From assembly GCA_964344285.1 (NCBI GenBank), contig CAYFMM010000003.1, positions 67,072 through 131,071 on the forward strand: a stretch of DNA of 64,000 nt. Direction: 5' to 3'. Below, in pieces: positions 63 to 44,379 of the stretch. The notes beneath the pieces were generated by a model. The model searched no databases. It was not told where the DNA came from and saw nothing but the letters and a program-made list of their open reading frames with translations. The stretch is from an uncultured Methanosarcinales archaeon (GTDB taxonomy: Archaea > Nanobdellota > Nanobdellia > Woesearchaeales > GW2011-AR9). Position 1 is the first letter of the stretch. The number at the start of each line of letters is the position of its first letter. The translations under genes were made by a program, and so were the position numbers.

Positions 63-911
63 ATGAGATGGAGAGGAGTTTTCCATAAAGCACTAAAAGA
101 GTTATTGAAAGATAAAAAAATGTCACCATCTTTGACTCTTCATGCATATATTGCAAGAATTATAAATCAACCTAAAGCCCCAGTAATCTTACTTGCAAAA
201 GGATTAAGATTTATTTTAAGAAGACTTTCACTTCGACGTAAAGGATTTTTGATCTCTTTAATTGGTGTGAACGGTACAGGAAAGACAACTATGACAAATG
301 AGTTATTAGATAAACTCAAACCTCTAACTAATTTCATGCATGGACAAAAAGGATATTATTTTGGTTGGGATCCTTTTTTACCATTAACCAGGATTATGTC
401 AAGATCAAAGCCTAAGGCTAGAGATAAAAAACAAGATGATGCTCAAAAATCAAAGAAAGAAAAAGAAATAATTAAGCAAGTTTCAGTTTTCAAGTCAATA
501 TATGTTTTTATTGAGTTTCTTGCAAGGTATTGGTGTAAGATCTATCCAATGTTGCAAAAAGGAAAAGTTGTTGTAACAGACAGATTTTATTATGATCAAT
601 ATGCACAAGGTTTTTTGCATCCTATGGTAAGTGCATTTTTGATGAATTTATTTCCAAAACCAGACAGGTTATATGTGCTTGATGCACCAATCGATGTCAT
701 CTTAATGAGAGATAAGAATACCAATGTACATTCTTCTAGCGTAATCAGAGACAAGAAGCGAGTTGCTCATGAACCTGCGTATCTAGAGTTGCAAAAAAAG
801 AGATACAAGGAGATTAGCAAAATGTTTAAAGGGTGTATAATTCCAACAAACAATAAAAGCAAAAGTGAAGAGATTATAAAAGAGACATGGCAATCAATCG
901 TAAAGAAGTAG
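63..911 (+). CDS. P-loop nucleotide kinase, thymidylate kinase-like
   Basis: Walker A GVNGTGKTT and a TMK-like DRx motif TDRFYYDQYAQG. A Lys-rich insert (KPKARDKKQDDAQKSKKEKE) sits between them. Confidence 0.5.
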   Translation: MRWRGVFHKALKELLKDKKMSPSLTLHAYIARIINQPKAPVILLAKGLRFILRRLSLRRKGFLISLIGVNGTGKTTMTNELLDKLKPLTNFMHGQKGYYFGWDPFLPLTRIMSRSKPKARDKKQDDAQKSKKEKEIIKQVSVFKSIYVFIEFLARYWCKIYPMLQKGKVVVTDRFYYDQYAQGFLHPMVSAFLMNLFPKPDRLYVLDAPIDVILMRDKNTNVHSSSVIRDKKRVAHEPAYLELQKKRYKEISKMFKGCIIPTNNKSKSEEIIKETWQSIVKK

Positions 912-2560
912 AAGATTTTATTGGGAATTGGACAAAGGAAGTTAAAGTAAATAAAAAACCGTTTGATGAAGTATTTCAAATTGATGGATCTCCTTTATGG
1001 TGGTTTTATCATAGAATTTTTGTTACCCATGTATTGCCAAAACCAGTGAATTGTTTTGCAGAGTTATATGAAAATAGAAAATTAAGTCTTAAAAAAAAGA
1101 TATTATTGAAAGCTGGTTCTATTGCCCTCCCTTTTTATTTTAGGCATGTAGAAAAAAAGAAAAGACAATATTTCTTTGAACAAGTAAGAAGATCTAAGAA
1201 TGGAATAAAGAGTAAAGAAGAACAAGAGAACATTAAAAGAGATAAAGAGATTCAAAGAATCTTATTTTTAAGCTATTCAAACCACATTGCACAAGATGGA
1301 ACTATTTTTAGATTACAATCAATTATCAACAAAATAAATGAAAATAAACAAGCTAAAGCAGTACCTATCTTTGCAATTCCATTCTCTCGAGAAGATAAAA
1401 AAATATTACAAGGAAGAAAAACAATATATGATTTTATAACAAAAGAAAATATTTCTCGTGCAAAAAACGATGCAAAGAGATTAAGTGAGAAATGGAACAA
1501 TATTAGTGTGAAAGAAAAACAAGAAATGTTTTCATTTAAAGAAAGGAGTTATTGGAGATATCTAAAATATGGGCTAAATTCTTTTTTTTCAAAGAGAATA
1601 TTGTTTGTTGTTGCACTGTATTATTATACGGCCATTGATATGATTAAAAAAGAGAAAATCCAAAGCGTCCTAATGAGTTCTACAAATGGACTGATTGATA
1701 AAGCAATGCAGGCTGCTGCTGCAAAATCAGGTAAAAAAGTATATGTTGTCCAACATGGAATTGGAGGGTTTACTTTTGATATTAAGACATTGCCAAATAC
1801 AGAGTTGTTGGTATTTAGTGAAAAATTCAAGCAAAATCTTGAAAAGCAGAGAGTTTCCTCCGATAAAATTCATGTTGTAGGGCCTGTTGTGTTTGATAAA
1901 GTTATTAGCTATAAAAAACCAGATTTGAACGGGAACAGAGAAGATAATAGTAATAACAATAATAGTATTAGTAGTAGTAATAACAAGAGTGGTAATGGCG
2001 ATGATGATAACAACAGTAATTGTAAATCTAAAGAGAGATTAGAGATATTTTTTGCAACAACATCAGCAGTTGAAGAAGGTCTTTTAAAAAAAGAAGAATA
2101 TTTCAAAAGAGTAAGAAAGATAATTATACAGCTAAATCAGCTAGATAATGTGTATTTAAAAATTAAATTGCATCCCATGGAAAAGATGCCTGAAGAGTAT
2201 AAAAAAATCTTAAGAGAAGAAGGAGTTAAAGGAGAAGTCATCTCAGACAATAATCGTGATCTTTTTTTTAGAAACCTTGCTACATGTAGTTTCTTTTTGA
2301 ACTTTAACTCAACAGCTTCAGTTGAGGCAATGATTTTAGACAAAGCTGTGATTAATGTTGATATCTTTGGAGAGGGTGCTTCTTTTACACGAGAGAGTGG
2401 CGCTGCAATTGAAGTACGTTTTGATGAAGATATTATGCAAGCTGCCAAAGAAGCATTAAAAGATACTAAAGCCACACAAAGAAAGAGATATGTAACAGAA
2501 ATTTGTGGAGAGGTAGATGGAAAATCTAGTGAGAGGATTGTAAAAATTCTTCTGGAATAA
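887..2560 (+). CDS. GT-B-like glycosyl/glycerophosphotransferase-like protein (TagF/KpsS-like), function uncertain
   Basis: A 557 aa ORF. The C-terminal half has TagF/Capsule_synth-like segments (FFATTS, KLHPMEK). It carries an internal Asn/Ser/Asp-rich low-complexity insert. It lies in the nonulosonic acid cluster. Confidence 0.3.
   Translation: MAINRKEVEDFIGNWTKEVKVNKKPFDEVFQIDGSPLWWFYHRIFVTHVLPKPVNCFAELYENRKLSLKKKILLKAGSIALPFYFRHVEKKKRQYFFEQVRRSKNGIKSKEEQENIKRDKEIQRILFLSYSNHIAQDGTIFRLQSIINKINENKQAKAVPIFAIPFSREDKKILQGRKTIYDFITKENISRAKNDAKRLSEKWNNISVKEKQEMFSFKERSYWRYLKYGLNSFFSKRILFVVALYYYTAIDMIKKEKIQSVLMSSTNGLIDKAMQAAAAKSGKKVYVVQHGIGGFTFDIKTLPNTELLVFSEKFKQNLEKQRVSSDKIHVVGPVVFDKVISYKKPDLNGNREDNSNNNNSISSSNNKSGNGDDDNNSNCKSKERLEIFFATTSAVEEGLLKKEEYFKRVRKIIIQLNQLDNVYLKIKLHPMEKMPEEYKKILREEGVKGEVISDNNRDLFFRNLATCSFFLNFNSTASVEAMILDKAVINVDIFGEGASFTRESGAAIEVRFDEDIMQAAKEALKDTKATQRKRYVTEICGEVDGKSSERIVKILLE
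1921..2030 (+). repeat. coding simple-sequence repeat (AAT/AGT-rich) giving an Asn/Ser/Asp-rich insert
   Basis: The DNA aataataatagtattagtagtagtaataacaag...gatgatgataacaacagtaat encodes NSNNNNSISSSNNKSGNGDDDNNSN inside the ORF 887..2560. Confidence 0.6.
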
Positions 2561-3098
2561 GTACTAAAAAGATTGTTTTTGAATCAAGCGCATAATTTGT
2601 ATGTTCTAAATCTTTTTTCATTGAAGGTGAAATAGGAGAAAAACCTAGATTAGTGAAGAGCTTTAAAGAAACTTGATTTTGTGGAATGATTCTTGCTAAA
2701 AGGTAGGAAATTTTTTCATCATGAAAATAAGTCTTTAATGCTTTAGTAAGAATAGGTTTTGCAAGCCCTTTTCCTCTAAAATGAGGATTAAGGTTAATGC
2801 TTATTTCTGCTACATTTTTTTGGTTTTCTTGTTTTCTTTGTTCTCCTTGGTTTTCTTGATTATCGTAGTCATCTTGGAATTTGTCAAAGCGTATTATGCC
2901 CAATTTTGAATCTTTTTTATCTAAGGCAATATACATAGTTCTTAGATTATTTTGAAGTGATTTTGTAAACCATAAAACGTGGTCTTGAAATTCTACCTTT
3001 CCAGATGGTGAGGCTGCAATTGTGTGTGGATCATTACGCCATAAAAAAATATCTTTTGAATCTTTTTGTTCTGCTTTGCGTAAAGTTATGTTTTCCAT
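2526..3098 (-). CDS. GNAT family N-acetyltransferase (PseH-like)
   Basis: GNAT motif A HFRGKGLAKPIL. Adjacent to the NeuB/PseI-like and GT2 genes. Start placed at the internal Met (MENITLRK) to avoid overlap with the upstream stop. Confidence 0.55.
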   Translation of the reverse strand: MENITLRKAEQKDSKDIFLWRNDPHTIAASPSGKVEFQDHVLWFTKSLQNNLRTMYIALDKKDSKLGIIRFDKFQDDYDNQENQGEQRKQENQKNVAEISINLNPHFRGKGLAKPILTKALKTYFHDEKISYLLARIIPQNQVSLKLFTNLGFSPISPSMKKDLEHTNYALDSKTIFLVLIPEEFLQSSH

Positions 3099-3102
3099 TT
3101 TT

Positions 3103-3882
3103 TTAATATTTTTTAAAATCCAAAAGAGGCCCATATTTGTGTTCTAATTGTTGTTTTCCTTTCTGTACAATTTCTGCGTTTGCAGTGTAAGATGCAGGAT
3201 GGCGGTTGTAAATGTAAAGAGGTTTTGGCACATGAATCCCAGGGAATTCTTGCTGTAGACGAAAGAGCAGATCATATTCTGGAAAAATAAAGTTTTTGTC
3301 CCAAAATCCTTTCTCAAGAAGGATTGATTTTGTGAATAAAATCCCACAAGCAAGAGTGTTAAGAATATTTGATGTGGAGACAATTTTTTGTGATTTATTT
3401 CGTAAATCAACTTCAATATAATCTGCATAGGCAAACCCAGCAGTTGGATTTTTTTGTAATACCTGATAAAGGTCTTGTAGAGTAGAAGCAGTAAATTCAT
3501 CATCACCATCTAAGAAGATAACATATTTACCTCGAGCTAAAGACAACCCAATATGGCCCGATTGAATAGCTCCTTGGTTTTCCTGATTAATAATCGTAAG
3601 AGATTGGTTGTCTTTCAAATTTTTATTTTCAAAAGAAGATAAAAGAACCTTAGTTTGGTCAGTACTCCCATCATTGATAACAATTATTTCATAAGTTAAA
3701 TCTGAAAAAACAACCTGATTTAGTGTGCTTTGTACAGCTTTTACAATAAATGTTGCATTGTTGTAAGTTCTAATAATTATAGAAATAAGAGGAGATTTTG
3801 AGTTATTGTTTATGTTTTCTTTTGCCGTAGATTGCACGTTTATTGTAGATTGCACTTGGATTACCTTTGAACCATCTCCCAT
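3103..3882 (-). CDS. family 2 glycosyltransferase
   Basis: GT2 signatures ISIIIRTYNN, VINDGSTD, and the DxD motif FLDGDDEF. Confidence 0.7.
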   Translation of the reverse strand: MGDGSKVIQVQSTINVQSTAKENINNNSKSPLISIIIRTYNNATFIVKAVQSTLNQVVFSDLTYEIIVINDGSTDQTKVLLSSFENKNLKDNQSLTIINQENQGAIQSGHIGLSLARGKYVIFLDGDDEFTASTLQDLYQVLQKNPTAGFAYADYIEVDLRNKSQKIVSTSNILNTLACGILFTKSILLEKGFWDKNFIFPEYDLLFRLQQEFPGIHVPKPLYIYNRHPASYTANAEIVQKGKQQLEHKYGPLLDFKKY

Positions 3883-4952
3883 GTTAAAGGCGTTCCTTTT
3901 TCAAGATGTTGTGTTGCTTGTTTGCCAATAATTTCTTCATAATATTTAGGCTCTAAGCCTACTGAAGGTCGTACTACGCGAATATTTTTATGTGTAAAGA
4001 CTTCTCCCTCTTTAATTGGTTCTGCTACAAATATTGAACGGCGATATTTTGTATTTTTTTGCTCTTTTTCACTTTGTGGTCCAAAGCGTACAGTTCCAGA
4101 TATTTTCTCTGCACGACGGATTGCTTGAACCATTGTAGTGAATTCTTGAGGTCCAACTGAAAAATCAGCGTCAAAACTGTTACTTTTTTCATCTGCTACG
4201 ATATGTTTTTCAACTACACTAGCGCCCATTAAAACTGCTTGTAAAGGAATTTCTATACCTCCATTATTGTCAGAAAATCCAGTTAAAACACCATAACGCT
4301 GTTTCATGTGAAGCATCGTTACAAGGTTAGAATCTTCTAATTTAGGTTCTCTTGCATATGCAGTTACACAATGTAACAAGATAATTGGACCAGAGTTATT
4401 CTCTTTAAGTGTTTGTACAGCTAAATCTACCTCATCTTGAGTTGCAAAACCTACTGAAATGATTACTGGTTTTCCAGTCTGAGCAACTTTTTTAATTAGA
4501 GGAATATGTGTTGCCTCATAAGAAGCTATTTTGTATAATGGAACATCTAATGTTTCAAGAAAATCTACAGCAGTTTCATCAAACGGTGTAGAAAAAAGGA
4601 CCAAACCTTTTTGATGTGCATATTCTTGTAATTCTTTGTGCCATTCCCACGGAGTGTATGCTTCTTGATACAAAGAATGAAGTGTTTTTTTATGCCAAAA
4701 ATCTGGGTTTTCTGTGTTGTTAATAATAAAGTGTTCATTATCACAGTTTAAAGTAATTGTGTCTGCTGTATAGGTTTGTAGTTTAATTGCATCTGCCCCT
4801 GCATCTGCTGCTACGTCAATTATTTTTTTTGCTTTTGCAAAGTCTTGTTCATGATTTGCTGACATCTCTGCAATAATGAAAGTCGGAGAGCCTTCACCAA
4901 TAGTTCTTGAGCCTTTGGGAGTTTGTATTGTAAATTGAGTTGTATGTTCCAT
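3861..4952 (-). CDS. nonulosonic acid synthase (NeuB/PseI family; pseudaminic or legionaminic acid synthase)
   Basis: NeuB-like N-terminal TIM-barrel region (IIAEMSANHEQDF) and a C-terminal SAF/antifreeze-like domain (GEVFTHKNIRVVRP). Confidence 0.8.
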   Translation of the reverse strand: MEHTTQFTIQTPKGSRTIGEGSPTFIIAEMSANHEQDFAKAKKIIDVAADAGADAIKLQTYTADTITLNCDNEHFIINNTENPDFWHKKTLHSLYQEAYTPWEWHKELQEYAHQKGLVLFSTPFDETAVDFLETLDVPLYKIASYEATHIPLIKKVAQTGKPVIISVGFATQDEVDLAVQTLKENNSGPIILLHCVTAYAREPKLEDSNLVTMLHMKQRYGVLTGFSDNNGGIEIPLQAVLMGASVVEKHIVADEKSNSFDADFSVGPQEFTTMVQAIRRAEKISGTVRFGPQSEKEQKNTKYRRSIFVAEPIKEGEVFTHKNIRVVRPSVGLEPKYYEEIIGKQATQHLEKGTPLTWEMVQR

Positions 4953-5003
4953 TTGATATCTTTTTTAATTATGTTTTTTTAATTTAATAAACCTCATTTG
5001 ATT

Positions 5004-7076
5004 TTATCTTCTCGCAAAAATAGACCTAAATTTTTCCCCTCGAAGCAGGCTTGTTACTGAGTTTTGCTCGATTGCTATTGCAACCTTATCAAGTGCTTTA
5101 TCTGCAGCTACAATAAAAGCATACACGTCTTGTTCAGTATGGGCTAAGCTAAAATTATTTACCCCAAGACTAAGGATTCCATGTTCAATTAAGGTTTGTT
5201 GGTACACTGAGAGTAAGTCTTCTGGTTCTAAGTTTTTGATTTTGTTAAATGTAATGCCACAGTGAGGTGATAACCCATAATAATTAATATGTTGTTGAAG
5301 ATTTTTACGTTCAATTAATTTTTGCATCTCTAAGAGCCAAAGGTCTCCTAAGTGTAGAATATGCTTAAATGACTCTGGGCGTTCTAAGATTTCAATTGTT
5401 TTAAGTGCTGCTACAAGAGGGAGAGTTTCTCCTCCAAATGTTGTTGAAATAAATGCACCATCATCAATGAGCTCCATAATTTCCTTTTTACCAACTACTG
5501 CTGATAATGAAAAACCGTTTGCCATACCTTTACCAAATGCCGCAAGATCAGGAGTTACACCATAATGACCTTGAGCTCCAGCAAGCCCCATCCTAAAGCC
5601 GGATACTACTTCATCAAAGATAAGAACTGCACCATGTTGGTGTGTAAGTTGTTTAACTTTTTCAAGAAAATCATCCTCAGGTCCTGTTCCTTGACAAGGT
5701 TCTAAAATAACGGCTGCAACATTTCCTGGATTATCATCAAATATTTTTTTTAGAGATTGTATATCGTTATATGTAAACTTTTTAGTTAATTCTTTTACCG
5801 CATTGGGCACTCCTAAGTTATTAGTTGTTGTTCCAATATACCAATCATGATAGCCATGATAGCCTGAACAAGCAATGATGTCTTTTTTAGTATGTGCCCT
5901 AGCTAGACGGATAGCAGCAGTTGTAGCATCACTTCCATTTTTAACAAATTTTACCATCTCAGCTGCAGGAATAATTTGTGTAAGTTTTTGAGCTAATTCC
6001 ACCTCTAGAGTTGTAGGCTGTGAGAATGTTACCCCTTTATGTAATTGTTCAATTACTGCTTGATTAATTTCTTGATTATTGTATCCAATTGTAACTGGAC
6101 CTAAACCAAGAATAAAATCAATGTATTTATTGCCATCAACATCCCAAACACAAGCTCCGTGTCCTTTTTCTAAGAAAGCAGGTGCTGCTCCTTCACAGAA
6201 ATATTTGTAACTCTTGCTATATGTTTGTGAAGCACTAGGGATTAATTTTTTTGCTCGCTTTAACCATTGTGTTGAAGTTGTAAATGTTTGTATTAAGTGA
6301 GTAGGTTTTTGTGCAAGAGGTTCTTGTACCTGGGATTCTTGTACAAGAGATTTTTCATAGCCTTCATTTCTTTTAAAATTTTCATTCGTTGGAAGAAGGG
6401 AAGAATTTTTGATTGCATCGTCAATTTGTTGAAAAGTTGGATTGTTGCCAAGAGTTTGTATTATTTTTCGAATAAATTCTAAGTCTTCTGCTTGATCTAC
6501 AGTAATTCTAAGATTTGAATAATTTTGTGGAGAGGTAAGGTTAGCCTTTGAAAAGAATTGATTTTTCCAAATATAGGGAGTTACGTGTTCTCGCTCAGAG
6601 GGCAAAGTTGCTTCGTTCCATGCCTTTGTAAGTGTCTTCATGGTAAATACTTCTACATCCATTCCATCAGGGAATGTAGGGGGATGAACGTTTGAAGTAT
6701 AATCGACTCCTTGCTCTTTATGATGTAATATTACTTGATCTATGATTTCAGGATTGATTAAAGGACAGTCTCCAGTGATTCGTACAATAAGGTCTTGTTC
6801 TTTTGCTTGGACAGTTTGTGCTGCTTGGTAATAACGATCCAAAACGTCATTTTCACTCCCTGTAAACGTAAAAACCCCTAACTCTTTTGCTTTTTGCACT
6901 AAAGGCAAATCTTTATCTTGTGTAGTTGTTGCAAGGATTATTTTATCAACTTGTGTTGCTTGTTGAACTCTTTTTATAACATGTTGAAGTAAAGGTTTTT
7001 TAGCAATCTCAAGAAGCATCTTTCCAGGAAGCCTAGATGAACCCATCCGAGCTTGAATTATTGTTATTACTGTCAT
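5004..7076 (-). CDS. bifunctional acylneuraminate-type cytidylyltransferase / class III (HemL-like) aminotransferase fusion
   Basis: N-terminus MTVITIIQARMGSSRLPGKMLL matches the CMP-nonulosonate cytidylyltransferase (SpsF/PseF/NeuA) family. The C-terminal ~430 aa match PLP-dependent aminotransferase class III (glutamate-1-semialdehyde aminomutase-like). Confidence 0.7.
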   Translation of the reverse strand: MTVITIIQARMGSSRLPGKMLLEIAKKPLLQHVIKRVQQATQVDKIILATTTQDKDLPLVQKAKELGVFTFTGSENDVLDRYYQAAQTVQAKEQDLIVRITGDCPLINPEIIDQVILHHKEQGVDYTSNVHPPTFPDGMDVEVFTMKTLTKAWNEATLPSEREHVTPYIWKNQFFSKANLTSPQNYSNLRITVDQAEDLEFIRKIIQTLGNNPTFQQIDDAIKNSSLLPTNENFKRNEGYEKSLVQESQVQEPLAQKPTHLIQTFTTSTQWLKRAKKLIPSASQTYSKSYKYFCEGAAPAFLEKGHGACVWDVDGNKYIDFILGLGPVTIGYNNQEINQAVIEQLHKGVTFSQPTTLEVELAQKLTQIIPAAEMVKFVKNGSDATTAAIRLARAHTKKDIIACSGYHGYHDWYIGTTTNNLGVPNAVKELTKKFTYNDIQSLKKIFDDNPGNVAAVILEPCQGTGPEDDFLEKVKQLTHQHGAVLIFDEVVSGFRMGLAGAQGHYGVTPDLAAFGKGMANGFSLSAVVGKKEIMELIDDGAFISTTFGGETLPLVAALKTIEILERPESFKHILHLGDLWLLEMQKLIERKNLQQHINYYGLSPHCGITFNKIKNLEPEDLLSVYQQTLIEHGILSLGVNNFSLAHTEQDVYAFIVAADKALDKVAIAIEQNSVTSLLRGEKFRSIFARR

Positions 7077-7177
7077 TTGTAGCTTTTTTGCTAGATTTCA
7101 CCTTTATTAGTTTTGTGATTAAATGGTCGTGTACATAAATGGTCATGTACATAATAGACCTTAAGATACTCTTTATA

Positions 7178-8029
7178 TCAACATGTCTTCCAGTTACTAG
7201 GAATAATAATTTTTTCTGAGTCTTCTTTAAGTGATTGAAGTTGTGCAAATTGCTCTTGAGTTAGTGAAATGTTGGTGGCTGCAATGTTCTCACAGAGATT
7301 TTCAATGGAGTCAACTCCTAAGACAAGGCTGTCAATTTCTTGGTAATGAGATACAAATGCAATACAAAGGCCTGCTACTGTTAGTCCACTATCTTTTGCT
7401 AGGGAATGAATAGTATTGACCTTAGGTTTTATGGGTAAAAAGAATTCTGATAAAGAACTAGGAGGTTTAAAGAAAAGGCCTTGAAGGAAAACGGATCTAA
7501 CATGGACCTCCACACCTTTTTGTTTTAAGCGAGAGAGATATGGTTGGAAACGTTGATCAAAAATATTAAACGGTATTTGAAGAATATCAAAATCAAGATT
7601 GTGTTCAAAAATCCATTCTAATTCTTTTGGGGAGTAAAGAGAAAAGCCAATTTTTTGTACTTTTTGTTGTTTTTTTAGTTGTTGCATTTCTTCCCATAAA
7701 GAAGGATCATTTTTAATTTCATCAAAGTGATGGAATAAGCAGGCGTAAATGGATTCTCTTTGTAAGCGTTGAAGGGAATTGGTAAAAGCTTGTTGAAGAT
7801 TCCAGATATCATCTTTTCCTAATTTGGTAACAATTTTAAAATCTTTAGAGGCAAATTTTCCTAAAAGAGCTTCACTATCCCCATACGCTGATGCTGTATC
7901 TAGTAATGTAATTCCGTTTTGTGCAGCAGTAATAAGAATTTCTTTAACTTCATGCTCTGGGATTTTTCCTCTTGTGTTATTAATCCCATAATCAAGTCCA
8001 AATTGAACTGTTCCAAGTGCGAGTTTCAT
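7178..8029 (-). CDS. aldo/keto reductase family oxidoreductase
   Basis: AKR N-terminal signature MKLALGTVQFGLDYG...LLDTASAYGDSE. Confidence 0.7.
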   Translation of the reverse strand: MKLALGTVQFGLDYGINNTRGKIPEHEVKEILITAAQNGITLLDTASAYGDSEALLGKFASKDFKIVTKLGKDDIWNLQQAFTNSLQRLQRESIYACLFHHFDEIKNDPSLWEEMQQLKKQQKVQKIGFSLYSPKELEWIFEHNLDFDILQIPFNIFDQRFQPYLSRLKQKGVEVHVRSVFLQGLFFKPPSSLSEFFLPIKPKVNTIHSLAKDSGLTVAGLCIAFVSHYQEIDSLVLGVDSIENLCENIAATNISLTQEQFAQLQSLKEDSEKIIIPSNWKTC

Positions 8030-8118
8030 CTTTTATTTTGTTTCACTTTTTATTTTATTAATTGATTAGTCAATTGATTAATCAGTTAGTTAGTGTTAAG
8101 TTAGTTAGTTACGTGCTA

Positions 8119-9267
8119 TTAATTTTGAGTTTTTTGTTGTTTGAAAAATTCCTTGACAGTGGTAATTACAAAATCTTGCTCTGATTCTTGCAATAAAGGA
8201 TAGATTGGTAGGCTAATAATTGTGTGATATAATTTTTCAGCTTGAGGACATAGACCTTTAGGGTAACCTTGTTTTTGATAGAATGGATGTAGATATACTG
8301 GAAGGTAGTGTACCTGGCAACGAATATTTTTATCAGCTAAATAAGTGAATAATTTTTTCCTCATGTCCTCACTAGAAGTTTTAATGACAAAAAGGTGGTA
8401 TGAATTTTTTGTATTACTTGGCTCAGCAAAGTAATTTATTTCAGGCATGTTTTCAAACGCCTCTTGGTAACGCTTTGCAATTTCTCTTCTTTTCTTCACA
8501 AAGGGATCTATTTTTTTGAGTTGATTTAATCCTAAGGCACTTTGGATATCCGTTAATCTATAATTAAAACCTAGTTCGTGCATCTCTTGATGCCATGGTC
8601 CTTCATCAGAGCTTTCTAATACAGTTGGATCTTTAGTTATACCATGGGAACGTAAGCGAAGTAATTTATGATATAATTCGTGATTATTTGTTGTAATCAT
8701 TCCACCTTCTCCAGTAGTGATGTGTTTAACTGGATGAAAGCTAAAGACCGTCATATCTGAGAACTGACAAGAACCAACCTTATGTCCACCATAGATTCCT
8801 CCTAGTGCATGGCAAGCATCTTCTATAACTACTAAGTTATGCTTTTGTGCTATTTCAGATATCTTCTCCATATTTGCACAAAGGCCAGTGTAATGGACAG
8901 GGATTAAAATCTTTGTCTGAGAAGTGATCTTTGATTCTATTTTTGATTCATCAATATTTCCAAATTCATTCACATCAACAAATATAGGTTTTGCCCCACA
9001 ATAAAAGGCACAATTTGCTGACGCTGCAAAAGTCATTGGAGTCGTAATTAATTCATCACCTTCTCCTAAACCTGCTGCAAGGCAAGACAAGTGCAAAGCT
9101 GCCGTTCCGTTTGAGACTGCAACTGCATATTTTGCTCCAACATATTCAGCAAATGCTTGCTCAAATTTTTGCACTGTAGGTCCAGTTGTGAGAAAATCGC
9201 TTTTAAGAGATTCAACTACTTGGTTAATGTCTTTTTCATCAATAGATTGTTTGCCGTAGGGGATCAT
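8119..9267 (-). CDS. DegT/DnrJ/EryC1/StrS family sugar aminotransferase (PseC-like)
   Basis: PLP sugar aminotransferase fold (AVSNGTAALHL; catalytic Lys region FSFHPVKHITTGEGG). Adjacent to the PseB-like dehydratase. Confidence 0.8.
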   Translation of the reverse strand: MIPYGKQSIDEKDINQVVESLKSDFLTTGPTVQKFEQAFAEYVGAKYAVAVSNGTAALHLSCLAAGLGEGDELITTPMTFAASANCAFYCGAKPIFVDVNEFGNIDESKIESKITSQTKILIPVHYTGLCANMEKISEIAQKHNLVVIEDACHALGGIYGGHKVGSCQFSDMTVFSFHPVKHITTGEGGMITTNNHELYHKLLRLRSHGITKDPTVLESSDEGPWHQEMHELGFNYRLTDIQSALGLNQLKKIDPFVKKRREIAKRYQEAFENMPEINYFAEPSNTKNSYHLFVIKTSSEDMRKKLFTYLADKNIRCQVHYLPVYLHPFYQKQGYPKGLCPQAEKLYHTIISLPIYPLLQESEQDFVITTVKEFFKQQKTQN

Positions 9268-9333
9268 TTGAAATTTATTTGAAATTTATTTGAAAGTCAT
9301 TGTAAAGTCTAACAAGGTTAAATTACAAAGCGA
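9268..9333. repeat. short tandem direct repeat (ATTTGAAATTT unit, about 2.5 copies) in the intergenic spacer
   Basis: The sequence ttgaaatttatttgaaatttatttgaaagtc lies between the PseC-like stop and the PseB-like start. Confidence 0.4.
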
Positions 9334-10350
9334 TCATAGTAAATTAAGTTCTGTAAACAAAGTTCTTATTTTCTCTGGAGCAATTACCTCACTATAAGAA
9401 CCATATTCTTGCATCTCTTGCTCAGAAAGTTTTCTACCTTCAAGAACATAACGAGGAGTTGATACTGACTGTTGATATCGTTGAATAGGAGAGGTTATCA
9501 CCAGAAGATTTTGGAATGCATAAGTCCTAGGAATTTCTGAGTTATTAATCATTAATTCATGAATTTTCTCACCTGGCCGAATACCAATAACTTCAACTTC
9601 AGTACTAGCATTATGTTTTTGTTTTAGTACTTCAATTAAGTCTGTTACTTTAAATGCAGGTAAGCGAGGAACAAAGATTTCTCCCCCAACACAGTATTGA
9701 AGTGCATCCATTACTAACTGAACTGCTTGTTGAGGACTAATAATAAAACGAGTCATTCGGTCATCTGTCAAAGGGATTTTTTGTCCCATTTTAATTTTAC
9801 CTTCAAAAAAAGGAATTACAGACCCTGTACTTTCTAAAACATTACCATAACGAACACAAGTAAAGATGGTTTTTTTACTTCCTTTATTAAAATTTGATTC
9901 TGTAAAAATCCTTTCACTTACAAATTTACAAGCACCATATGTGTTTACTGGAGAACAAGCTTTATCGGTTGAGACAAAAATTGCTTTTTCAACATCATTT
10001 TCTAAGCATGCATTTACAACATTTAAAGTTCCAAGAATGTTTGTTTGAATAGACTCAGAAACATTATACTCTAAGATGTCTAAACGTTTGAGAGCTGCTG
10101 CGTGAATAACTATATCAACGCCTTCGATTGCTCTTTTTAGTCTTGGATAATCACGTACATCTCCGATAAGATGACGTAATTTTGAAGAATAACTAAATTT
10201 TTCTTGTACTTTGTGGTGTTTTACTTCATCACGACAGAATAAGCGAATGCTTTGAGGGTCATACTTTAAAATTTCCTCTACGAGTGCTTGGCCTAAAAAC
10301 CCTGTACCGCCAGTGATTAAGACTGTTTTTCCCTTGAAAATATGTTCCAT
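9334..10350 (-). CDS. UDP-N-acetylglucosamine 4,6-dehydratase (PseB/FlaA1/CapD-like SDR)
   Basis: Rossmann motif KTVLITGGTGFLGQ. Length and layout are typical of inverting 4,6-dehydratases. Confidence 0.8.
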   Translation of the reverse strand: MEHIFKGKTVLITGGTGFLGQALVEEILKYDPQSIRLFCRDEVKHHKVQEKFSYSSKLRHLIGDVRDYPRLKRAIEGVDIVIHAAALKRLDILEYNVSESIQTNILGTLNVVNACLENDVEKAIFVSTDKACSPVNTYGACKFVSERIFTESNFNKGSKKTIFTCVRYGNVLESTGSVIPFFEGKIKMGQKIPLTDDRMTRFIISPQQAVQLVMDALQYCVGGEIFVPRLPAFKVTDLIEVLKQKHNASTEVEVIGIRPGEKIHELMINNSEIPRTYAFQNLLVITSPIQRYQQSVSTPRYVLEGRKLSEQEMQEYGSYSEVIAPEKIRTLFTELNLL

Positions 10351-10463
10351 TTTTAGGTTTGGATGCCAAGTTACTGTTTATATATTTTAGGAAACAGAGA
10401 TAAGCAATTATTCATGATCCGTAGTTGAAATATAATTTTGTTTCTTTTAAAATGAAGTCATGA

Positions 10464-10568
10464 ATAGCCAGAGTGCCATTCATCCTCGCAGTATCCTCAA
10501 AAAGCTCTCTGCTTTTTGGGACCCCAAAAATCACATTTTTCAGGGAACTACGAGGCTTTCTGGCTATT
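10464..10568. repeat. inverted repeat bounding a ~105 nt GC-enriched intergenic element (possible small structured RNA or MITE-like element)
   Basis: A perfect 10-nt inverted repeat AATAGCCAGA / TCTGGCTATT with a further near-complementary pair (CCTCGCAG / CTACGAGG) just inside it. It lies in the divergent promoter region between the PseB-like and GT4 genes. Confidence 0.3.
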
Positions 10569-10647
10569 TAATGTAAAGCTTCAAAGAGAAGATTCTTTAA
10601 CAACCTTTTACATAAATTAATTAAAGGGAAGACTTAGCAAAAAGAAG

Positions 10648-11802
10648 ATGAAAATACTTTTAATCAACGCAACTTTTACAAAGAATCTTAAGGAAGCAGC
10701 AAACATTACTACCTTAAATTATGCCAAAGAGCTGATTAGTAGAGGTCATGAAGTAAAAATTGTTGCAGAAAGAAGACAAGGCCTCCCTTCTGAAGAGGTA
10801 TTTCAAGGAGTGCCAGTACATAGGCATAAGAAGGTGAGTACTAAAGCATTTTTTACAAAATTTCTGGGTTTACAGTTAACTGTTAAAGAGATTAAGAAAA
10901 AAGGGTTTAATGCAGAAGTGGTGCACGGTTTTAGTGCATCTACGCTAATGGCATTAAATACAATACTAGCTCATTTTTGGTTTCCAAAAAGCAAGGTATT
11001 TCACACAATTAAATCAGAGTCCAAGGCCACTATTGATAAATATTTTTCATTTGTACTTAATTTTTTAGATGTTGTTACTGTCTCAACTGCAAAGCAAGTA
11101 AAAAGACTTAGGGGCCGTGGAGTAAGAAAAGATAAAATCAAAGTCATCAAGTCACATATTGATACCAAAAAATTTGTTGCAAAAGATAAAGAAACACTAA
11201 AGAAGAGTTATGGTTATGAAGGAAGAAAAATTGTACTTTATTATGGAGCTATGAGAGAAGATAAAGGGACTATGGACTTATTGAAATCAAGCCCATTAGT
11301 AATAAAAGATGAACCTTTAGTGTTGTATATTTTTATTGGGAGATGGAAAGCAGATGACGATGAATTTCATCGGTATGTAAAAGAGCAAAAACTGGAAGAG
11401 AATGTGTTAATTATTACAGAAGACGTAGTGATTGAAGATTATGTGGCAATGGCAGACATAGGTATTTTCCCTTATCAAACACTAACAAGAACAGAAAGCA
11501 ATCCTTCTTGTGTGTTAGAATGCCTTGCTTGTAAGACCCCTGTAATTACGAGTTTCCTTCCAGAATTAAAAGAGATTTTGACAAATGGAAAGAATTGTGT
11601 TATGGTCAGACCACAAGATATTAAGGAATTAGCAAAAGCCACCCTAGATTTGTTGAATGATACACAAAAACAAGAGAGATTAAGAGAAGAAGGAAAAATT
11701 ATTGCAAATGAATTTTCCATTACAAAAAGAACCGATGAATTCTTAGAGATGTACTTAAAAGTAAGAGGCAAAGTAAATAGAAATAAGAACAACTCTGCGT
11801 AA
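10648..11802 (+). CDS. family 4 (GT-B) glycosyltransferase
   Basis: GT4 C-terminal donor-binding region (ESNPSCVLECLACKTPVITS). Confidence 0.65.
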   Translation: MKILLINATFTKNLKEAANITTLNYAKELISRGHEVKIVAERRQGLPSEEVFQGVPVHRHKKVSTKAFFTKFLGLQLTVKEIKKKGFNAEVVHGFSASTLMALNTILAHFWFPKSKVFHTIKSESKATIDKYFSFVLNFLDVVTVSTAKQVKRLRGRGVRKDKIKVIKSHIDTKKFVAKDKETLKKSYGYEGRKIVLYYGAMREDKGTMDLLKSSPLVIKDEPLVLYIFIGRWKADDDEFHRYVKEQKLEENVLIITEDVVIEDYVAMADIGIFPYQTLTRTESNPSCVLECLACKTPVITSFLPELKEILTNGKNCVMVRPQDIKELAKATLDLLNDTQKQERLREEGKIIANEFSITKRTDEFLEMYLKVRGKVNRNKNNSA

Positions 11803-12539: not shown

Positions 12540-13631
12540 ATGAAAGTTTATTGTAATATTGATACTGATGCAAGAAAATTTGAAGGAAGAACACAACTTG
12601 CAACAAAAGTTACAGCATTCTTAAAAGAGAAAGGATTTGAGTTTACGCAAAATCCCAAAGAAGCAGACTTGTTTCATTTTCATAGTAGCGGAGTTTTTGA
12701 GTCTTATAGAGCTTACCAATTAAAAAAAAAATATGGTAAACCATGTATTTATTCGTTATATTCTAATGTAGTAGCTTCTGCAATTATGCACCCAATTAAT
12801 TTTTGGATTCAAAAGAAATATTTTCAAAAGACAGCGACTAAATTTCTTCCAAGTTACACTGCAGCAATTCCTTTATGGATGCGATCTTTTTTTCTCAATA
12901 AGTTAGATGTTGTAGTAGTTCCCTCAAAGTTTTTACAGCAGAAGTTAGGAAAAAATGCAAGGATAATTCCTTTTGGAGTTGACATTGCAAAGTTTACAAT
13001 TCTTGAAAAAAAAAATGAAGCAGAGAATGCTTTAACTCAAGACAAAGGAGAACAAGAAGAGCAAGAAGAAGTCGCAGGAAGGAAAACAAAAAAAATAAAG
13101 GTAGCTTATTTTGGACATGCTGGAGTGTTTAAAGGATTAAATGATTTTGTAAATGCATCATTTCATTTTGATAAAGACATTGAGACCCATATTTTTATGA
13201 CACAGCGTTTTGATAAAGTTGATAAGTATATTGCAAGGAACTCAAAGATTATTATTCACGGATTTGTAGAAAACATTACCAAGGCGTATAATGATATGGA
13301 CATCGTCTTATTACCTTATAGAACTGAAATAGGAACTGTTGCAAATCCATTAGTATTAATAGAAGCAATGGCGTGTGGAAAAGCAATAGTTACCACTGAT
13401 TTTGATTTCGTAAAAGAAGTAGTAGGTAACTCTGCTACAATAAGCCCAAAATTTTCACCAAAAAAATTAGCTAAAGCAGTAAACACACTTGCAAAAGATT
13501 CTGGATTGCGAGAGGAAATGGGAAAAAAAGCACGTAAGATTGTTGAAGAGAAGTATTCACGAGAAAAGATGTTACAGGGTTATTTGAATCTATATCAAGA
13601 ATTTGCTAAAGAGAAATTAAAAGTTGAATAA
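12540..13631 (+). CDS. family 4 (GT-B) glycosyltransferase
   Basis: GT4 C-terminal motif LIEAMACGKAIVTTD. Confidence 0.65.
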   Translation: MKVYCNIDTDARKFEGRTQLATKVTAFLKEKGFEFTQNPKEADLFHFHSSGVFESYRAYQLKKKYGKPCIYSLYSNVVASAIMHPINFWIQKKYFQKTATKFLPSYTAAIPLWMRSFFLNKLDVVVVPSKFLQQKLGKNARIIPFGVDIAKFTILEKKNEAENALTQDKGEQEEQEEVAGRKTKKIKVAYFGHAGVFKGLNDFVNASFHFDKDIETHIFMTQRFDKVDKYIARNSKIIIHGFVENITKAYNDMDIVLLPYRTEIGTVANPLVLIEAMACGKAIVTTDFDFVKEVVGNSATISPKFSPKKLAKAVNTLAKDSGLREEMGKKARKIVEEKYSREKMLQGYLNLYQEFAKEKLKVE

Positions 13632-26645: not shown

Positions 26646-26724
26646 ATGATTAGGTTGGAATGATAGGTGAATCATAGTTTCTTGTTAAACAAAGTTTATA
26701 AAGCGATTAATAGCCATTCTAGGC

Positions 26725-28775: not shown

Positions 28776-28790
28776 TAGGTGTTGTAAAAA

Positions 28791-29702: not shown

Positions 29703-29741
29703 ATCCTACGACTCTAGATTCATTAAGTTTAAAAAGTAAAA

Positions 29742-39278: not shown

Positions 39279-39415
39279 TGCATACCAGCTTGACCGGATT
39301 TCTGACGTTGCTCTTTTCCAAAAGATGATTAACTTGTATTTACATCTCGTGGCAAGAGCAACTTCTAGAAGATAGTACCATTACCTTTATAAGGGGAAAT
39401 TTTGCCATATTCTAC

Positions 39416-41006: not shown

Positions 41007-41007
41007 A

Positions 41008-41214
41008 ATGGTTACAGAAAAAAAGAAACGAAGTATTGCAAAGGCGCTGAGTTGGAGAGTTACAGCAACATTAATTACAACAGTTCTTGTTTTTATATTT
41101 ACAGGTCAGTTTACATTAGCAATCTCAGTGGGGGTTGTTGAAGTCTTATTGAAAATGCTAGCGTATTATGCGCATGAACGTTCATGGGACAAAATTAACT
41201 GGGGGAGATTTTAA
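41008..41214 (+). CDS. small two-helix membrane protein (DUF2061-like) inside the cys operon
   Basis: 68 aa with two hydrophobic helices, tightly packed between cysD and cysN with overlapping stop and start. Confidence 0.4.
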
Positions 41215-44350: not shown

Positions 44351-44379
44351 CTACCCTTTAAGATATAATGCGGTTATAA

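What the first reader, a model, noticed from the sequence alone, without database searches (positions are those of the whole stretch)
5004..7076. Cytidylyltransferase fused to a HemL-like class III aminotransferase inside the nonulosonic acid cluster
Seen in sequence: a single 690-aa ORF begins as a CMP-nonulosonate/SpsF-type cytidylyltransferase (MTVITIIQARMGSSRLPGK). After a linker it continues as a full glutamate-1-semialdehyde-aminomutase-family PLP enzyme. Separate genes of both families occur in bacterial flagellin-glycosylation (ptm/leg) loci. A covalent fusion suggests channelling between nucleotide activation and amination of the nonulosonate or its precursor.
Basis: partly seen in the sequence, partly recalled or inferred. 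Interest (0 to 1): 0.55.

Follow-up and report, generated by a model that had tools for sequence, protein, structure and literature searches.

The report
Common cytidylyltransferase–aminotransferase fusion in pseudaminic-acid cluster
The 690-aa two-domain gene is real, but it is a widespread and already-annotated fusion of two neighbouring genes in pseudaminic-acid-type sugar clusters, and the role of its aminotransferase half has not been tested (most likely it adds a third amino group to the sugar).

Summary
Window 5004..7076 on the minus strand is one intact 690-aa ORF. It has an SpsF/6oew-type CMP-ulosonate cytidylyltransferase (CT, aa 1-232), a disordered linker, and a GSAM-fold class III PLP aminotransferase (AT, aa 262-690). 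All catalytic residues are present, including the PLP lysine K516. Independent assemblies of two sequencing runs give the identical protein.

The gene sits in an archaeal pseudaminic-acid-type operon: PseB, PseC, aldo-keto reductase (AKR), CT~AT, PseI, GT2, GNAT.

The fusion is not rare. At least 585 species genomes encode relatives, and most of the closest ones are fused. JGI already names them "GSA aminomutase/SpsF". Fused and split states interconvert often. Split AKR–CT–AT gene sets are described in Aeromonas and Legionella loci.

An oxidoreductase (AKR or Gfo/Idh/MocA) is adjacent or fused in 41 of 50 complete loci. The AT is also fused directly to Gfo, SDR and GNAT domains elsewhere.

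This points to a dehydrogenase, aminotransferase, (acyltransferase) module working with the CMP-transferase. Its most likely product is an 8-amino pseudaminic-type sugar, as reported in Tenacibaculum maritimum. That function is inferred, not shown.

Verdict: a new member of a known but biochemically uncharacterised kind, of moderate to low interest.

The parts
5004..7076 (-). Whole CT~AT ORF, 690 aa plus stop codon (5004-5006)
6381..7076 (-). N-terminal SpsF/6oew-type CMP-ulosonate cytidylyltransferase domain (aa 1-232). Invariant residues: R10, R15, K19, D103 (GDCP), D194 (VDxxED)
   Evidence: Pfam CTP_transf_3; PDB 6oew E=5e-38 and KdsB alignments; invariant columns; codon positions
6294..6380 (-). 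Inter-domain linker (aa 233-261), variable in sequence and length between homologs
   Evidence: Alignment A1 columns about 230-320 are unconserved; pLDDT below 50 at aa 249-261
5007..6293 (-). C-terminal GSAM-fold class III PLP aminotransferase domain (aa 262-690)
   Evidence: Pfam Aminotran_3; PDB GSAM hits; Foldseek hits to GSAM, FumI and GenB
5529..5531 (-). Codon of K516, the Schiff-base (PLP) lysine in the motif FGKGMANG. D488 (codon 5613-5615) is the PLP-pyridine Asp of the FDEV motif
   Evidence: Aligned to the LGK and FDEV motifs of GSAM; invariant in 21 homologs; codons checked
7178..8029 (-). Aldo-keto reductase, 101 bp upstream on the same strand; proposed redox partner of the AT domain
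   Evidence: Pfam Aldo_ket_red E=5e-35. An AKR or GFO oxidoreductase is adjacent or fused in 41 of 50 complete loci. AKR~CT~AT triple fusions exist
8119..9267 (-). PseC (UDP-4-amino-4,6-dideoxy-AltNAc transaminase)
   Evidence: NCBIfam TIGR03588, 516 bits against a cut-off of 423.5
9334..10350 (-). PseB-like inverting UDP-GlcNAc 4,6-dehydratase
   Evidence: Best NCBIfam hit is TIGR03589, 353 bits, below the 407.75 cut-off; Pfam Polysacc_synt_2
3861..4952 (-). PseI (pseudaminic acid synthase), 51 bp downstream of the fusion
   Evidence: NCBIfam TIGR03586, 433 bits against a cut-off of 340.25
3103..3882 (-). GT2 glycosyltransferase in the same operon-like run
   Evidence: Pfam Glycos_transf_2 E=1.3e-26
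2526..3134 (-). GNAT N-acetyltransferase, a weak PseH-like candidate
   Evidence: Pfam Acetyltransf_3; TIGR03585 PseH only 37 bits against a cut-off of 93; an HMM built from cluster GNATs of other loci gives E=3.9e-36
887..2560 (+). Convergent 557-aa GT-B-like protein, possibly the nonulosonate transferase; it does not look like PseG
   Evidence: Weak Epimerase_2 match in the C-terminal half; weak BFO_1060-family glycosyltransferase match, 44 bits against a cut-off of 200; a similar protein occurs in L004

Best explanation
The ORF is a genuine bifunctional enzyme of an archaeal pseudaminic-acid-type nonulosonic acid (NulO) operon. (a) Its N-terminal SpsF-type domain is the only CMP-ulosonate cytidylyltransferase in the cluster, so it makes the CMP-activated sugar and stands in for PseF. 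(b) Its C-terminal class III PLP domain is a true aminotransferase, not the heme enzyme HemL. It works with the oxidoreductase encoded next door (an AKR here; Gfo/Idh/MocA or SDR enzymes elsewhere). The oxidoreductase oxidises a free hydroxyl of the nine-carbon sugar to a ketone, and the AT converts that ketone to an amine. In some lineages a fused GNAT then acylates the amine. The most likely site is C8, whose oxidation gives a methyl ketone. The product would then be a 5,7,8-triamino-3,5,7,8,9-pentadeoxy-nonulosonic acid of the kind reported from Tenacibaculum maritimum, delivered as its CMP derivative. Shown here: domain identity, intact catalytic residues, operon context, and recurrent adjacency or fusion of CT, AT, oxidoreductase and GNAT. 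Inferred: the substrates, the position aminated, and whether CMP activation comes before or after amination.
For: Domains and catalytic residues. The CT domain is the only CTP_transf_3-type protein in the 64-kb window; the other nucleotidyltransferase, at 49260-50009, is a sugar-1-phosphate NTP_transferase. Only 8 of 80 related loci carry a second CT. SpsF-type or non-PseF CTs act at the CMP-activation step in B. subtilis, where the spsF deletion mutant makes Leg but cannot transfer it (PMC7439481). Caulobacter FlmC completes a six-enzyme Pse pathway in E. coli (PMC7591256). The AT is not HemL: TIGR00713 scores 263 bits against a cut-off of 527, and PRK06209 scores 392 against 486. The usual gene order is PseB-PseC-[GFO or AKR]-CT~AT-PseG(~GNAT)-PseI. 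Of 50 loci with complete flanks, 44 have an oxidoreductase (26 GFO, 18 AKR), and in 41 it is adjacent or fused. Fusion evidence: GFO~CT~AT and AKR~CT~AT; GFO~AT without CT (P0231, P0266); extended-SDR~AT (P0229); AT~SDR (P0324); GNAT~AT (P0232, P0115); GNAT~CT~AT (P0236). Structural neighbours include FumI and the GenB C-6' aminoglycoside aminotransferases. From memory, these act on a carbon next to a terminal methyl. Product precedent: an 8-amino-3,5,7,8,9-pentadeoxy-manno-nonulosonic acid occurs in the T. maritimum O-polysaccharide (PMC3210612). A. hydrophila AH-1 carries a 403-Da Pse-like glycan of unknown structure. [quoted passage not shown]
Against: There is no biochemical or genetic test of any member's AT or oxidoreductase in the literature I could search. 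I could not show that T. maritimum has the module. I could not show that the Aeromonas or Legionella class III AT genes are orthologs, nor that strain AH-1 carries them. The window has only one GNAT, so a third amine would stay free or the scheme is incomplete. AKRs usually act as reductases, not alcohol oxidases (general knowledge). Vibrio sp. B9-25K2, which has CT~AKR plus a dehydrogenase and no reported AT, makes a compound with the same mass as PseAc2. The redox partner can therefore serve purposes other than amination. Fusions also occur between non-consecutive enzymes in these operons (PseI~GNAT, and apparently PseC~AKR), so a fusion does not prove consecutive steps.
Confidence: 0.45

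Rival explanations
1. The oxidoreductase and the AT remodel the sugar without adding nitrogen. One possibility is deamination of an amine to a ketone followed by reduction, giving a net change of amine to hydroxyl. Another is PLP- and redox-based epimerisation, giving a stereoisomer of Pse.
For: AKRs are typically carbonyl reductases (general knowledge). Vibrio sp. B9-25K2, with CT~AKR plus a dehydrogenase, gives a compound of the same mass as PseAc2 but with different retention and fragmentation. The authors read this as an epimer or as N-acetyl groups on other positions. Class III enzymes include PLP-dependent epimerases such as the GenB 6'-epimerase and isoleucine 2-epimerase, both seen among the PDB hits.
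Against: Recurrent fusion of the AT to GNAT N-acyltransferases makes sense only if the AT creates an amine. PseB already supplies a 4-keto intermediate, so a deaminate-and-reduce route would be redundant. The Vibrio cluster lacks the AT, so it says little about what the AT does.
Confidence: 0.15
2. The AT and the oxidoreductase build an unusual N-acyl substituent or its donor (for example an amino- or hydroxy-acyl group) rather than modifying the sugar backbone.
For: NulOs carry many N-acyl groups; the T. maritimum sugar has a 3-hydroxybutyryl group. One database source names a close split homolog '3-aminobutyryl-CoA aminotransferase' (P0435; a name only). Many of these loci also carry formyltransferase or PseA-like/HisH/HisF genes for alternative N-substituents.
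Against: There is no acyl-CoA ligase, ACP or thiolase in the window's operon. The AT is fused to the CMP-sugar-forming enzyme and to sugar-type Gfo/Idh/MocA and extended-SDR domains. The module is present in loci that differ in which N-acyl genes accompany it.
Confidence: 0.15
3. The AT and the oxidoreductase act before the PseI condensation, on the UDP-hexose or the free hexose. One example would be a 3-oxidation followed by 3-amination, as WbpB/WbpE do, or a back-up for PseC.
For: Gfo/Idh/MocA plus aminotransferase pairs classically act on UDP-sugars (WbpB/WbpE, GnnA/GnnB; from memory). The oxidoreductase gene usually follows PseC directly, and one locus shows an apparent PseC~AKR fusion (L006).
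Against: Hexose C3 becomes NulO C6, whose hydroxyl closes the pyranose ring, so amination there would block ring formation (chemical reasoning). PseC is present in 42 of 50 loci, so no back-up is needed. The AT is fused to the last enzyme of the pathway, the CT, not to PseB, PseC or PseG.
Confidence: 0.08
4. The C-terminal half is a true HemL (glutamate-1-semialdehyde 2,1-aminomutase) for tetrapyrrole synthesis that happens to be fused to a sugar enzyme.
For: The best-scoring named families and PDB hits are GSAM.
Against: Scores are far below the HemL equivalog cut-offs: 263 against 527, 238 against 637, and 392 against 486. Identity to GSAM structures is only about 30%. The GSAM segment QFEAGF aligns to SLGVNN, so the Glu that excludes alpha-carboxylate substrates in GSAM (E406; role recalled from Hennig et al. 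1997) is absent. The gene is embedded in NulO operons in nearly all of the 80 loci.
Confidence: 0.01
5. The fusion is an assembly or sequencing artefact joining two separate genes.
For: Split CT and AT genes exist in related genomes.
Against: The identical 690-aa product appears in three assemblies from two runs. The linker is in frame and has counterparts of variable length in more than 250 fused homologs.
Confidence: 0.01

Closest known systems
Aeromonas group I polar-flagellin glycosylation islands (pseB-pseC-AKR-pseF-class III aminotransferase-pseG-(pseH)-pseI; Forn-Cuni et al. 2021, PMC7874193)
   Same: The same gene families in the same order: PseB, PseC, aldo/keto reductase, cytidylyltransferase, class III aminotransferase, PseI. 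The glycan is a Pse 'derivative' of unresolved structure.
   Different: The CT and AT are separate genes there and PseG is usually present. The host is bacterial and the context is flagellar. Orthology of the Aeromonas AT to this domain was not verified here. The function of the AKR and AT is also unknown there.
Fused CT~AT proteins in public databases, named by JGI 'glutamate-1-semialdehyde 2,1-aminomutase/spore coat polysaccharide biosynthesis protein SpsF'
   Same: Colinear full-length homologs at 37-60% identity, with the same catalytic residues and the same operon context.
   Different: None in kind. This is an archaeal (DPANN-like) member, and its locus lacks a recognisable PseG.
B. subtilis SpsF, Caulobacter FlmC and PDB 6oew (non-NeuA/PseF-type CMP-nonulosonate cytidylyltransferases)
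   Same: The CTP_transf_3 fold. There is 6oew-like sequence over aa 3-228. The genetic role is at the CMP-activation step of Leg or Pse.
   Different: Those are stand-alone proteins in pathways without an extra AT. That FlmC is SpsF-type is from my memory, not tested here. 6oew has no publication that I could find.
Glutamate-1-semialdehyde 2,1-aminomutase (HemL/GSAM)
   Same: The fold (TM 0.85-0.88), the PLP Lys and Asp, the phosphate loop, and a basic residue (K288) at the position of the substrate-carboxylate Arg of GSAM.
   Different: It fails the HemL equivalog cut-offs. It lacks the GSAM Glu of the FEAGF motif. It sits in a NulO operon and has redox, GNAT and CT fusion partners.
Dehydrogenase/aminotransferase(/acetyltransferase) sugar-amination modules: KdnB/KdnA (Kdo8N in Shewanella), GenQ/GenB1 and NeoQ/NeoB (aminoglycoside C-6' amination), WbpB/WbpE/WbpD (all recalled from memory)
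   Same: The same logic: oxidise a hydroxyl, transaminate the carbonyl, optionally N-acetylate. GenB enzymes are class III, GSAM-like, and are structural neighbours. KdnB/KdnA act on an ulosonic acid.
   Different: The substrates differ. No member of those systems is fused to a cytidylyltransferase. KdnA and WbpE belong to other aminotransferase classes (from memory). The activity here is untested.
8-amino-3,5,7,8,9-pentadeoxy-manno-nonulosonic acid of the Tenacibaculum maritimum O-polysaccharide (review PMC3210612)
   Same: It is the product predicted for oxidation and transamination at C8 of a Pse-type sugar.
   Different: Its biosynthetic genes are unknown. I could not establish that T. maritimum encodes this module.

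Membership tests
Pfam CTP_transf_3 (PF02348), the CMP-ulosonate cytidylyltransferase superfamily | HMM score above the gathering cut-off | tested here: met
   120.7 bits against 22.6, aa 4-177
CMP-ulosonate cytidylyltransferases (KdsB/NeuA/SpsF type) | N-terminal Arg/Lys CTP-binding loop and the two acidic metal-site motifs | tested here: met
   R10, R15, K19, D103 (GDCP) and D194 (VDxxED, aligned to the KdsB motif GVDTAEDLE) are invariant in 21 homologs. The residue roles are taken from knowledge of KdsB.
PseF (NCBIfam TIGR03584 equivalog) | Score at or above the 205.7-bit cut-off | tested here: not met
   26.3 bits, aa 4-71 only. It may work like PseF but is not a PseF-family member.
KdsB (NCBIfam PRK13368, PRK05450, TIGR00466) | Score at or above the curated cut-offs (155-281 bits) | tested here: not met
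   Best score 89.8 bits against 255; only the N-terminal half aligns
SpsF/6oew-type cytidylyltransferase | Full-domain similarity to a member of the type | tested here: met
   PDB 6oew E=5.3e-38 over aa 3-228. JGI names homologs 'SpsF'. No curated HMM for this type was available to test.
Pfam Aminotran_3 (PF00202), class III PLP enzymes | HMM score above the cut-off, plus the Schiff-base Lys and the PLP-binding Asp | tested here: met
   199.4 bits against 30.5. K516 and D488 align to the GSAM LGK and FDEV motifs and are invariant.
HemL / glutamate-1-semialdehyde 2,1-aminomutase (TIGR00713, PRK00062, PRK12389, PRK06209) | Score at or above the equivalog cut-offs | tested here: not met
   263 against 527.3; 276 against 398; 238 against 637; 392 against 486
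HemL / GSAM | Aminomutase activity on glutamate-1-semialdehyde | not testable with these tools
   This needs an enzyme assay or hemL complementation. Context argues against it.
Canonical pseudaminic acid cluster (PseB, C, H, G, I, F) | All six equivalogs present | tested here: not met
   PseC (516 against 423.5) and PseI (433 against 340) are met. PseB is below the cut-off (353 against 408). The GNAT is only weakly PseH-like (37 against 93). No PseG is found anywhere in the window. There is no PseF-family protein. This is therefore a variant Pse-type cluster.
Bifunctional CT~AT architecture family | Colinear full-length homologs with both domains | tested here: met
   More than 100 full-length hits; 66 of 80 genome loci fused; 271 of 297 sampled sequences fused
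Dehydrogenase/aminotransferase sugar-amination module | An NAD(P) oxidoreductase genetically coupled to the AT | tested here: met
   Adjacent or fused in 41 of 50 complete loci. Direct GFO~AT, SDR~AT and AT~SDR fusions exist.
Dehydrogenase/aminotransferase sugar-amination module | Demonstrated oxidation and transamination of the sugar | not testable with these tools
   This requires enzymology or glycan structure determination.

The most novel reading that the evidence does not exclude
The oxidoreductase-AT(-GNAT) module attached to the SpsF-type cytidylyltransferase is the unknown biosynthetic route to 8-amino-8-deoxy (5,7,8-triamino) nonulosonic acids. Relatives of the module occur in at least 585 species-level genomes across bacteria and archaea, including this DPANN-like archaeon. 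If the reading is right, triamino-nonulosonic acids would be a widespread and largely overlooked class of cell-surface sugars.
Probability: 0.3. Interest if true: 0.65.

Novelty: new member of a known kind. Interest (0 to 1): 0.38.

Why it matters
In itself the fusion is ordinary. It is a common, already annotated architecture formed from two neighbouring genes of variant pseudaminic-acid clusters. The useful point is that the three-part module of oxidoreductase, cytidylyltransferase and class III aminotransferase is very widespread. It occurs in flagellin, LPS and archaeal surface-glycan loci, including those of Aeromonas and Legionella, and has no assigned function. The fusion patterns collected here give a concrete and cheaply testable hypothesis: the module adds a third amino group to the nonulosonic acid, probably at C8. 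Confirming it would explain the T. maritimum 8-amino sugar and possibly the unresolved Pse 'derivatives' on Aeromonas flagellins. It would also improve annotation of thousands of genes now called 'glutamate-1-semialdehyde aminomutase'.

Tried and rejected
(1) HemL identity was rejected on curated cut-offs and on context.

(2) A frameshift or assembly artefact was rejected because three assemblies from two runs give the identical protein.

(3) I searched for a PseG in the window with an HMM built from 56 PseG sequences of related loci. None was found; the only hit was a 7.9e-5 GT-B match to a GT1.

(4) I searched for another CMP-ulosonate CT or class III AT in the window. None was found.

(5) Literature searches for a characterised function of the AT/AKR pair found only descriptive mentions. 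A search for 'triamino' with 'nonulosonic' found nothing. PDB 6oew has no paper in the library. My recollection that rkpO might be the HemL-like gene was wrong: RkpO is the PseG homolog.

(6) The link to T. maritimum could not be tested. The O-antigen paper gives no usable gene list and no supplements are held. A large search with a Flavobacteriales fusion returned no Tenacibaculum-named protein among the best 120 hits, of which only about a quarter carry names.

(7) The link to Aeromonas and Legionella orthologs could not be tested. A search with a split proteobacterial AT returned only Betaproteobacteria and metagenome hits. The AH-1 paper does not list the AKR and AT genes.

(8) The first tree attempt, using the Biopython distance calculator, timed out. 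I redid it with a numpy neighbour-joining implementation.

(9) I considered amination at hexose C3 before condensation and rejected it on chemical grounds, because that carbon becomes C6, the ring-closing position.
Full report
OBSERVATION. The coordinates hold one intact ORF of 690 codons, but it lies on the minus strand. This start matches the N-termini of homologs. Pfam finds CTP_transf_3 at aa 4-177 (E=1e-34) and Aminotran_3 at aa 299-634 (E=1e-58).

The N-terminal half, taken alone, matches PDB 6oew ('Cytidylyltransferase') over aa 3-228 at E=5e-38, followed by many KdsB structures. The C-terminal half matches glutamate-1-semialdehyde aminomutase (GSAM) structures at E=1e-57 to 1e-64. An AlphaFold model built on 21 homologs has mean pLDDT 89.1 and pTM 0.63. 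It shows two confident domains, and pLDDT falls below 50 only at aa 249-261. Foldseek places the large domain on GSAM (TM 0.85-0.88, about 30% identity), then FumI, D-phenylglycine aminotransferase, PctV and the GenB C-6' aminotransferases.

Catalytic residues are invariant across 21 fusions from distant phyla. In the CT domain these are R10, R15, K19, D103 (GDCP) and D194 (VDxxED). In the AT domain they are the N380-G381-S382-D383 phosphate loop, Y406-H407, D488-E489 (FDEV) and the Schiff-base lysine K516.

I could not map reads. However, the identical protein is encoded by an ENA assembly and a Logan assembly of run ERR2281800 and by an ENA assembly of run ERR2281801. The source is a metagenome of project PRJEB17505.

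ORGANISM AND LOCUS. The window is archaeal. It encodes a thermosome scoring 735 bits against a 450-bit cut-off. The nearest named homologs of the fusion are from Candidatus Woesearchaeota. G+C content is 34%.

The ORF sits in a run of minus-strand genes with short gaps of 51-101 bp: PseB-like (9334-10350), PseC (8119-9267), an aldo-keto reductase (7178-8029), the fusion, PseI (3861-4952), a GT2 and a GNAT. PseC and PseI pass the NCBIfam equivalog cut-offs. PseB and the GNAT do not. There is no PseF-family protein and no PseG anywhere in the 64 kb. This is therefore a pseudaminic-type cluster, but a variant one.

HOW COMMON IS THE FUSION? It is very common. A search of 5.8 billion proteins returned more than 100 full-length colinear hits at 44-60% identity. 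They come from Woesearchaeota, Bacteroidota, Desulfatibacillum, Nitrospiraceae, Methylomirabilota and others. JGI names many of them 'glutamate-1-semialdehyde 2,1-aminomutase/spore coat polysaccharide biosynthesis protein SpsF'.

Of the best 80 loci, 55 encode CT~AT, 11 encode GFO~CT~AT, and 14 have a separate AT, most with a separate CT gene next to it.

For a view not biased toward fusions, I searched 1.84 billion cluster representatives with the AT domain alone. Among the best 50 representatives, 33 carry an N-terminal extension and 17 are stand-alone. Among the best 150, 50 carry one and 99 are stand-alone or fragments.

On a neighbour-joining tree of 297 AT domains, the 26 split forms are scattered among 271 fused ones. 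Parsimony requires at least about 20 changes of state. The nearest relative of a split form is usually a fused one at 60-86% identity. In a betaproteobacterial clade the split 429-aa form dominates, with fused 656-682-aa forms interspersed at about 70% identity. The fusion state is therefore evolutionarily labile and is not a singular invention.

WHAT TRAVELS WITH IT? I searched the 80 loci with references from the window and from the Desulfatibacillum locus. The typical order is PseB-PseC-[oxidoreductase]-CT~AT-PseG(~GNAT)-PseI.

Fifty loci have at least 6 kb of sequence on both sides. Their gene content is:
- An oxidoreductase in 44 (Gfo/Idh/MocA in 26, AKR in 18), adjacent or fused in 41.
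- PseB in 42, PseC in 42, PseG in 39 and PseI in 44.

Only 8 of the 80 loci carry a second CT. Some loci that my references scored as lacking an oxidoreductase do have one. L064 has a divergent GFO plus a radical SAM enzyme, and L081 has a PhyH dioxygenase next to NeuB.

Published descriptions match this picture. Aeromonas group I flagellin glycosylation islands read pseB-pseC-AKR-pseF-class III aminotransferase-pseG-(pseH)-pseI (PMC7874193). The L. pneumophila Sg6/Sg12 LPS locus has PseG, a 'GSA aminomutase', a cytidylyltransferase, an aryl-alcohol-dehydrogenase-like oxidoreductase, DegT and CapD (PMC3694923). A Vibrio Pse cluster has an SpsF-like CT fused to an AKR (PMC7371886). None of these papers assigns a function to the AT or the oxidoreductase.

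FUSION PARTNERS AS FUNCTIONAL EVIDENCE. The AT domain has many partners besides CT. They are listed below.
- AKR~CT~AT: P0010, P0014, P0046.
- GFO~CT~AT: P0237 and 11 genome loci.
- GFO~AT with no CT: P0231, P0266.
- Extended-SDR~AT: P0229.
- AT~classical SDR: P0324.
- GNAT~AT: P0115, P0232.
- GNAT~CT~AT: P0106, P0236.

Four unrelated families of NAD(P) oxidoreductase recur as neighbours or fusion partners of one aminotransferase, sometimes together with an N-acyltransferase. This is the signature of a sequence in which a hydroxyl is oxidised to a ketone, the ketone is transaminated to an amine, and the amine is acylated.

MECHANISM PROPOSED. Step 1, inferred with reasonable support: the CT domain is the CMP-nonulosonate synthetase of the cluster. 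It is the only member of that superfamily in the window. Non-PseF cytidylyltransferases fill this step elsewhere. In B. subtilis, the spsF deletion mutant accumulates legionaminic acid but cannot transfer it (PMC7439481). In Caulobacter, FlmC has 'no homology to RkpN or PseF' yet completes a six-enzyme Pse pathway reconstituted in E. coli (PMC7591256).

Step 2, inferred: the neighbouring AKR oxidises a free hydroxyl of the nonulosonate and the AT domain aminates the resulting ketone. Only C4-OH and C8-OH are free on a Pse-type sugar. I favour C8 for three reasons.
- Oxidation at C8 gives a methyl ketone, which is the classic substrate shape for class III omega-transaminases (general knowledge).
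- The structural neighbours FumI and GenB aminate or deaminate a carbon next to a terminal methyl (their hits are; their chemistry is from memory).
- An 8-amino-3,5,7,8,9-pentadeoxy-manno-nonulosonic acid has been found in the T. maritimum O-polysaccharide (PMC3210612).

Whether CMP activation precedes or follows amination cannot be decided from sequence.

The AT is not HemL. It falls far below every HemL equivalog cut-off. The GSAM segment QFEAGF aligns with SLGVNN, so it lacks the Glu that, as I recall from Hennig et al. 1997, keeps alpha-carboxylate co-substrates out of GSAM. It does keep a basic residue (K288) where GSAM has its carboxylate-binding Arg.

WEAKNESSES. No member's AT or oxidoreductase has been tested, as far as the searchable literature shows. 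I could not show that T. maritimum has the module. I could not show that the Aeromonas and Legionella genes are orthologs.

A. hydrophila AH-1 carries a 403-Da Pse-like glycan of unknown structure. [quoted passage not shown] But acetamidino derivatives would also give odd masses, and the genotype of the strain is not stated in that paper.

Vibrio sp. B9-25K2 has CT~AKR plus a dehydrogenase and makes a compound of the same mass as PseAc2. This shows that the redox partner can also serve epimerisation-type remodelling. Fusions between non-consecutive enzymes also occur in these operons (PseI~GNAT). The CT~AT fusion is therefore suggestive of channelling but is not proof.

COMPARISON AND NOVELTY. 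What it works like: a dehydrogenase/aminotransferase sugar-amination module, comparable to KdnB/KdnA for Kdo8N, GenQ/GenB1 and WbpB/WbpE/WbpD (all from memory), joined to a CMP-ulosonate synthetase. What it is a member of: the CTP_transf_3 and Aminotran_3 superfamilies, and the large, already annotated CT~AT architecture family. It is not a member of the PseF, KdsB or HemL equivalogs, because the tested cut-offs are not met.

The window's gene is therefore a new, archaeal member of a known but biochemically uncharacterised kind. A specialist would not be surprised by the fusion. The modest interest lies in the testable hypothesis for a very widespread unassigned module.

SCORES. Interest is 0.38. 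The most novel reading not excluded is that the module is the route to triamino-nonulosonic acids and that these sugars are widespread. I give this a probability of about 0.3 and an interest of about 0.65 if true.

Noticed in passing
window 1-64000; cluster 2526-10350: The Pse-type cluster has no recognisable PseG (UDP-sugar hydrolase) anywhere in the 64-kb window. An HMM built from 56 PseG sequences gives only a 7.9e-5 GT-B match to a GT1 at 12540-13631. How the UDP-linked intermediate is released in this archaeon is unexplained. The triple-fusion locus L004 and some Aeromonas subgroups also lack PseG.
   Followed up: partly
window 887-2560 (+): A 557-aa protein converges on the cluster. Its C-terminal half weakly matches Epimerase_2 (8e-8) and the 'BFO_1060 family glycosyltransferase' (44 bits against a cut-off of 200). 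A similar Epimerase_2/Glyphos_transf-like 500-aa protein sits in L004. It is a candidate nonulosonate transferase or an atypical UDP-sugar hydrolase.
   Followed up: partly
window 24007-33302 (+): There is a second sugar-nucleotide cluster: an AMP-binding enzyme, a UDP-GlcNAc 2-epimerase, a DegT aminotransferase, a Gfo/Idh/MocA oxidoreductase and a GT2. It ends with an unusual 1186-aa protein combining CTP_transf_like, PEP-utilizers and PPDK_N (PEP synthase/PPDK-like) domains.
   Followed up: no
window 38457-47860: There is a sulfation module: a sulfotransferase (38457-39278), a CysQ-like inositol monophosphatase-family protein (39416-40210), a CysD-like PAPS_reduct-domain protein (40203-41006), a CysN/CysC fusion of an EF-Tu-type GTPase and APS kinase (41214-43085), a DUF354 protein (44380-45528) and a second sulfotransferase (46919-47860). 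This suggests sulfated surface glycans in this archaeon.
   Followed up: no
window 60692-62254 (-), 50973-51085 (-), 58461-58536 (-), 56135-57403 (-): A thermosome subunit (735 bits against a 450-bit cut-off), a 5S rRNA, tRNA-His(GTG) and histidyl-tRNA synthetase establish an archaeal origin. Together with Woesearchaeota as the nearest named homologs, they point to a DPANN-type genome with 34% G+C.
   Followed up: partly
window 58601-60076 (-): A 491-aa protein combines a CDP-alcohol phosphatidyltransferase domain with a diacylglycerol-kinase catalytic domain, which is an unusual lipid-enzyme fusion.
   Followed up: no
L006 (archaeon ARS1334), ORF upstream of the match at 9175-11226: An apparent PseC~AKR fusion appears as a 733-codon stop-to-stop ORF matching both references, directly upstream of CT~AT. 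It was not checked for a frameshift or for overlapping genes.
   Followed up: no
L064 9202-14434; L081 361-5287: Bacteroidota versions of CT~AT sit in different company. L064 has a methyltransferase, a radical SAM/SPASM enzyme and a divergent Gfo/Idh/MocA. L081 has NeuB, an unknown 321-aa protein and a PhyH-family dioxygenase. These may make further-modified nonulosonates.
   Followed up: partly
L001 20192-22073 (same contig, beyond the window's start): The source contig encodes a protein of about 910 aa with ARMT1-like and CTP_transf_like domains next to the glycan locus.
   Followed up: no
P0435: A close split homolog of the AT (69% identical to the Rhodocyclales AT) is named '3-aminobutyryl-CoA aminotransferase' by one source. 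This is probably an annotation transfer, but it is the only alternative functional label seen.
   Followed up: no
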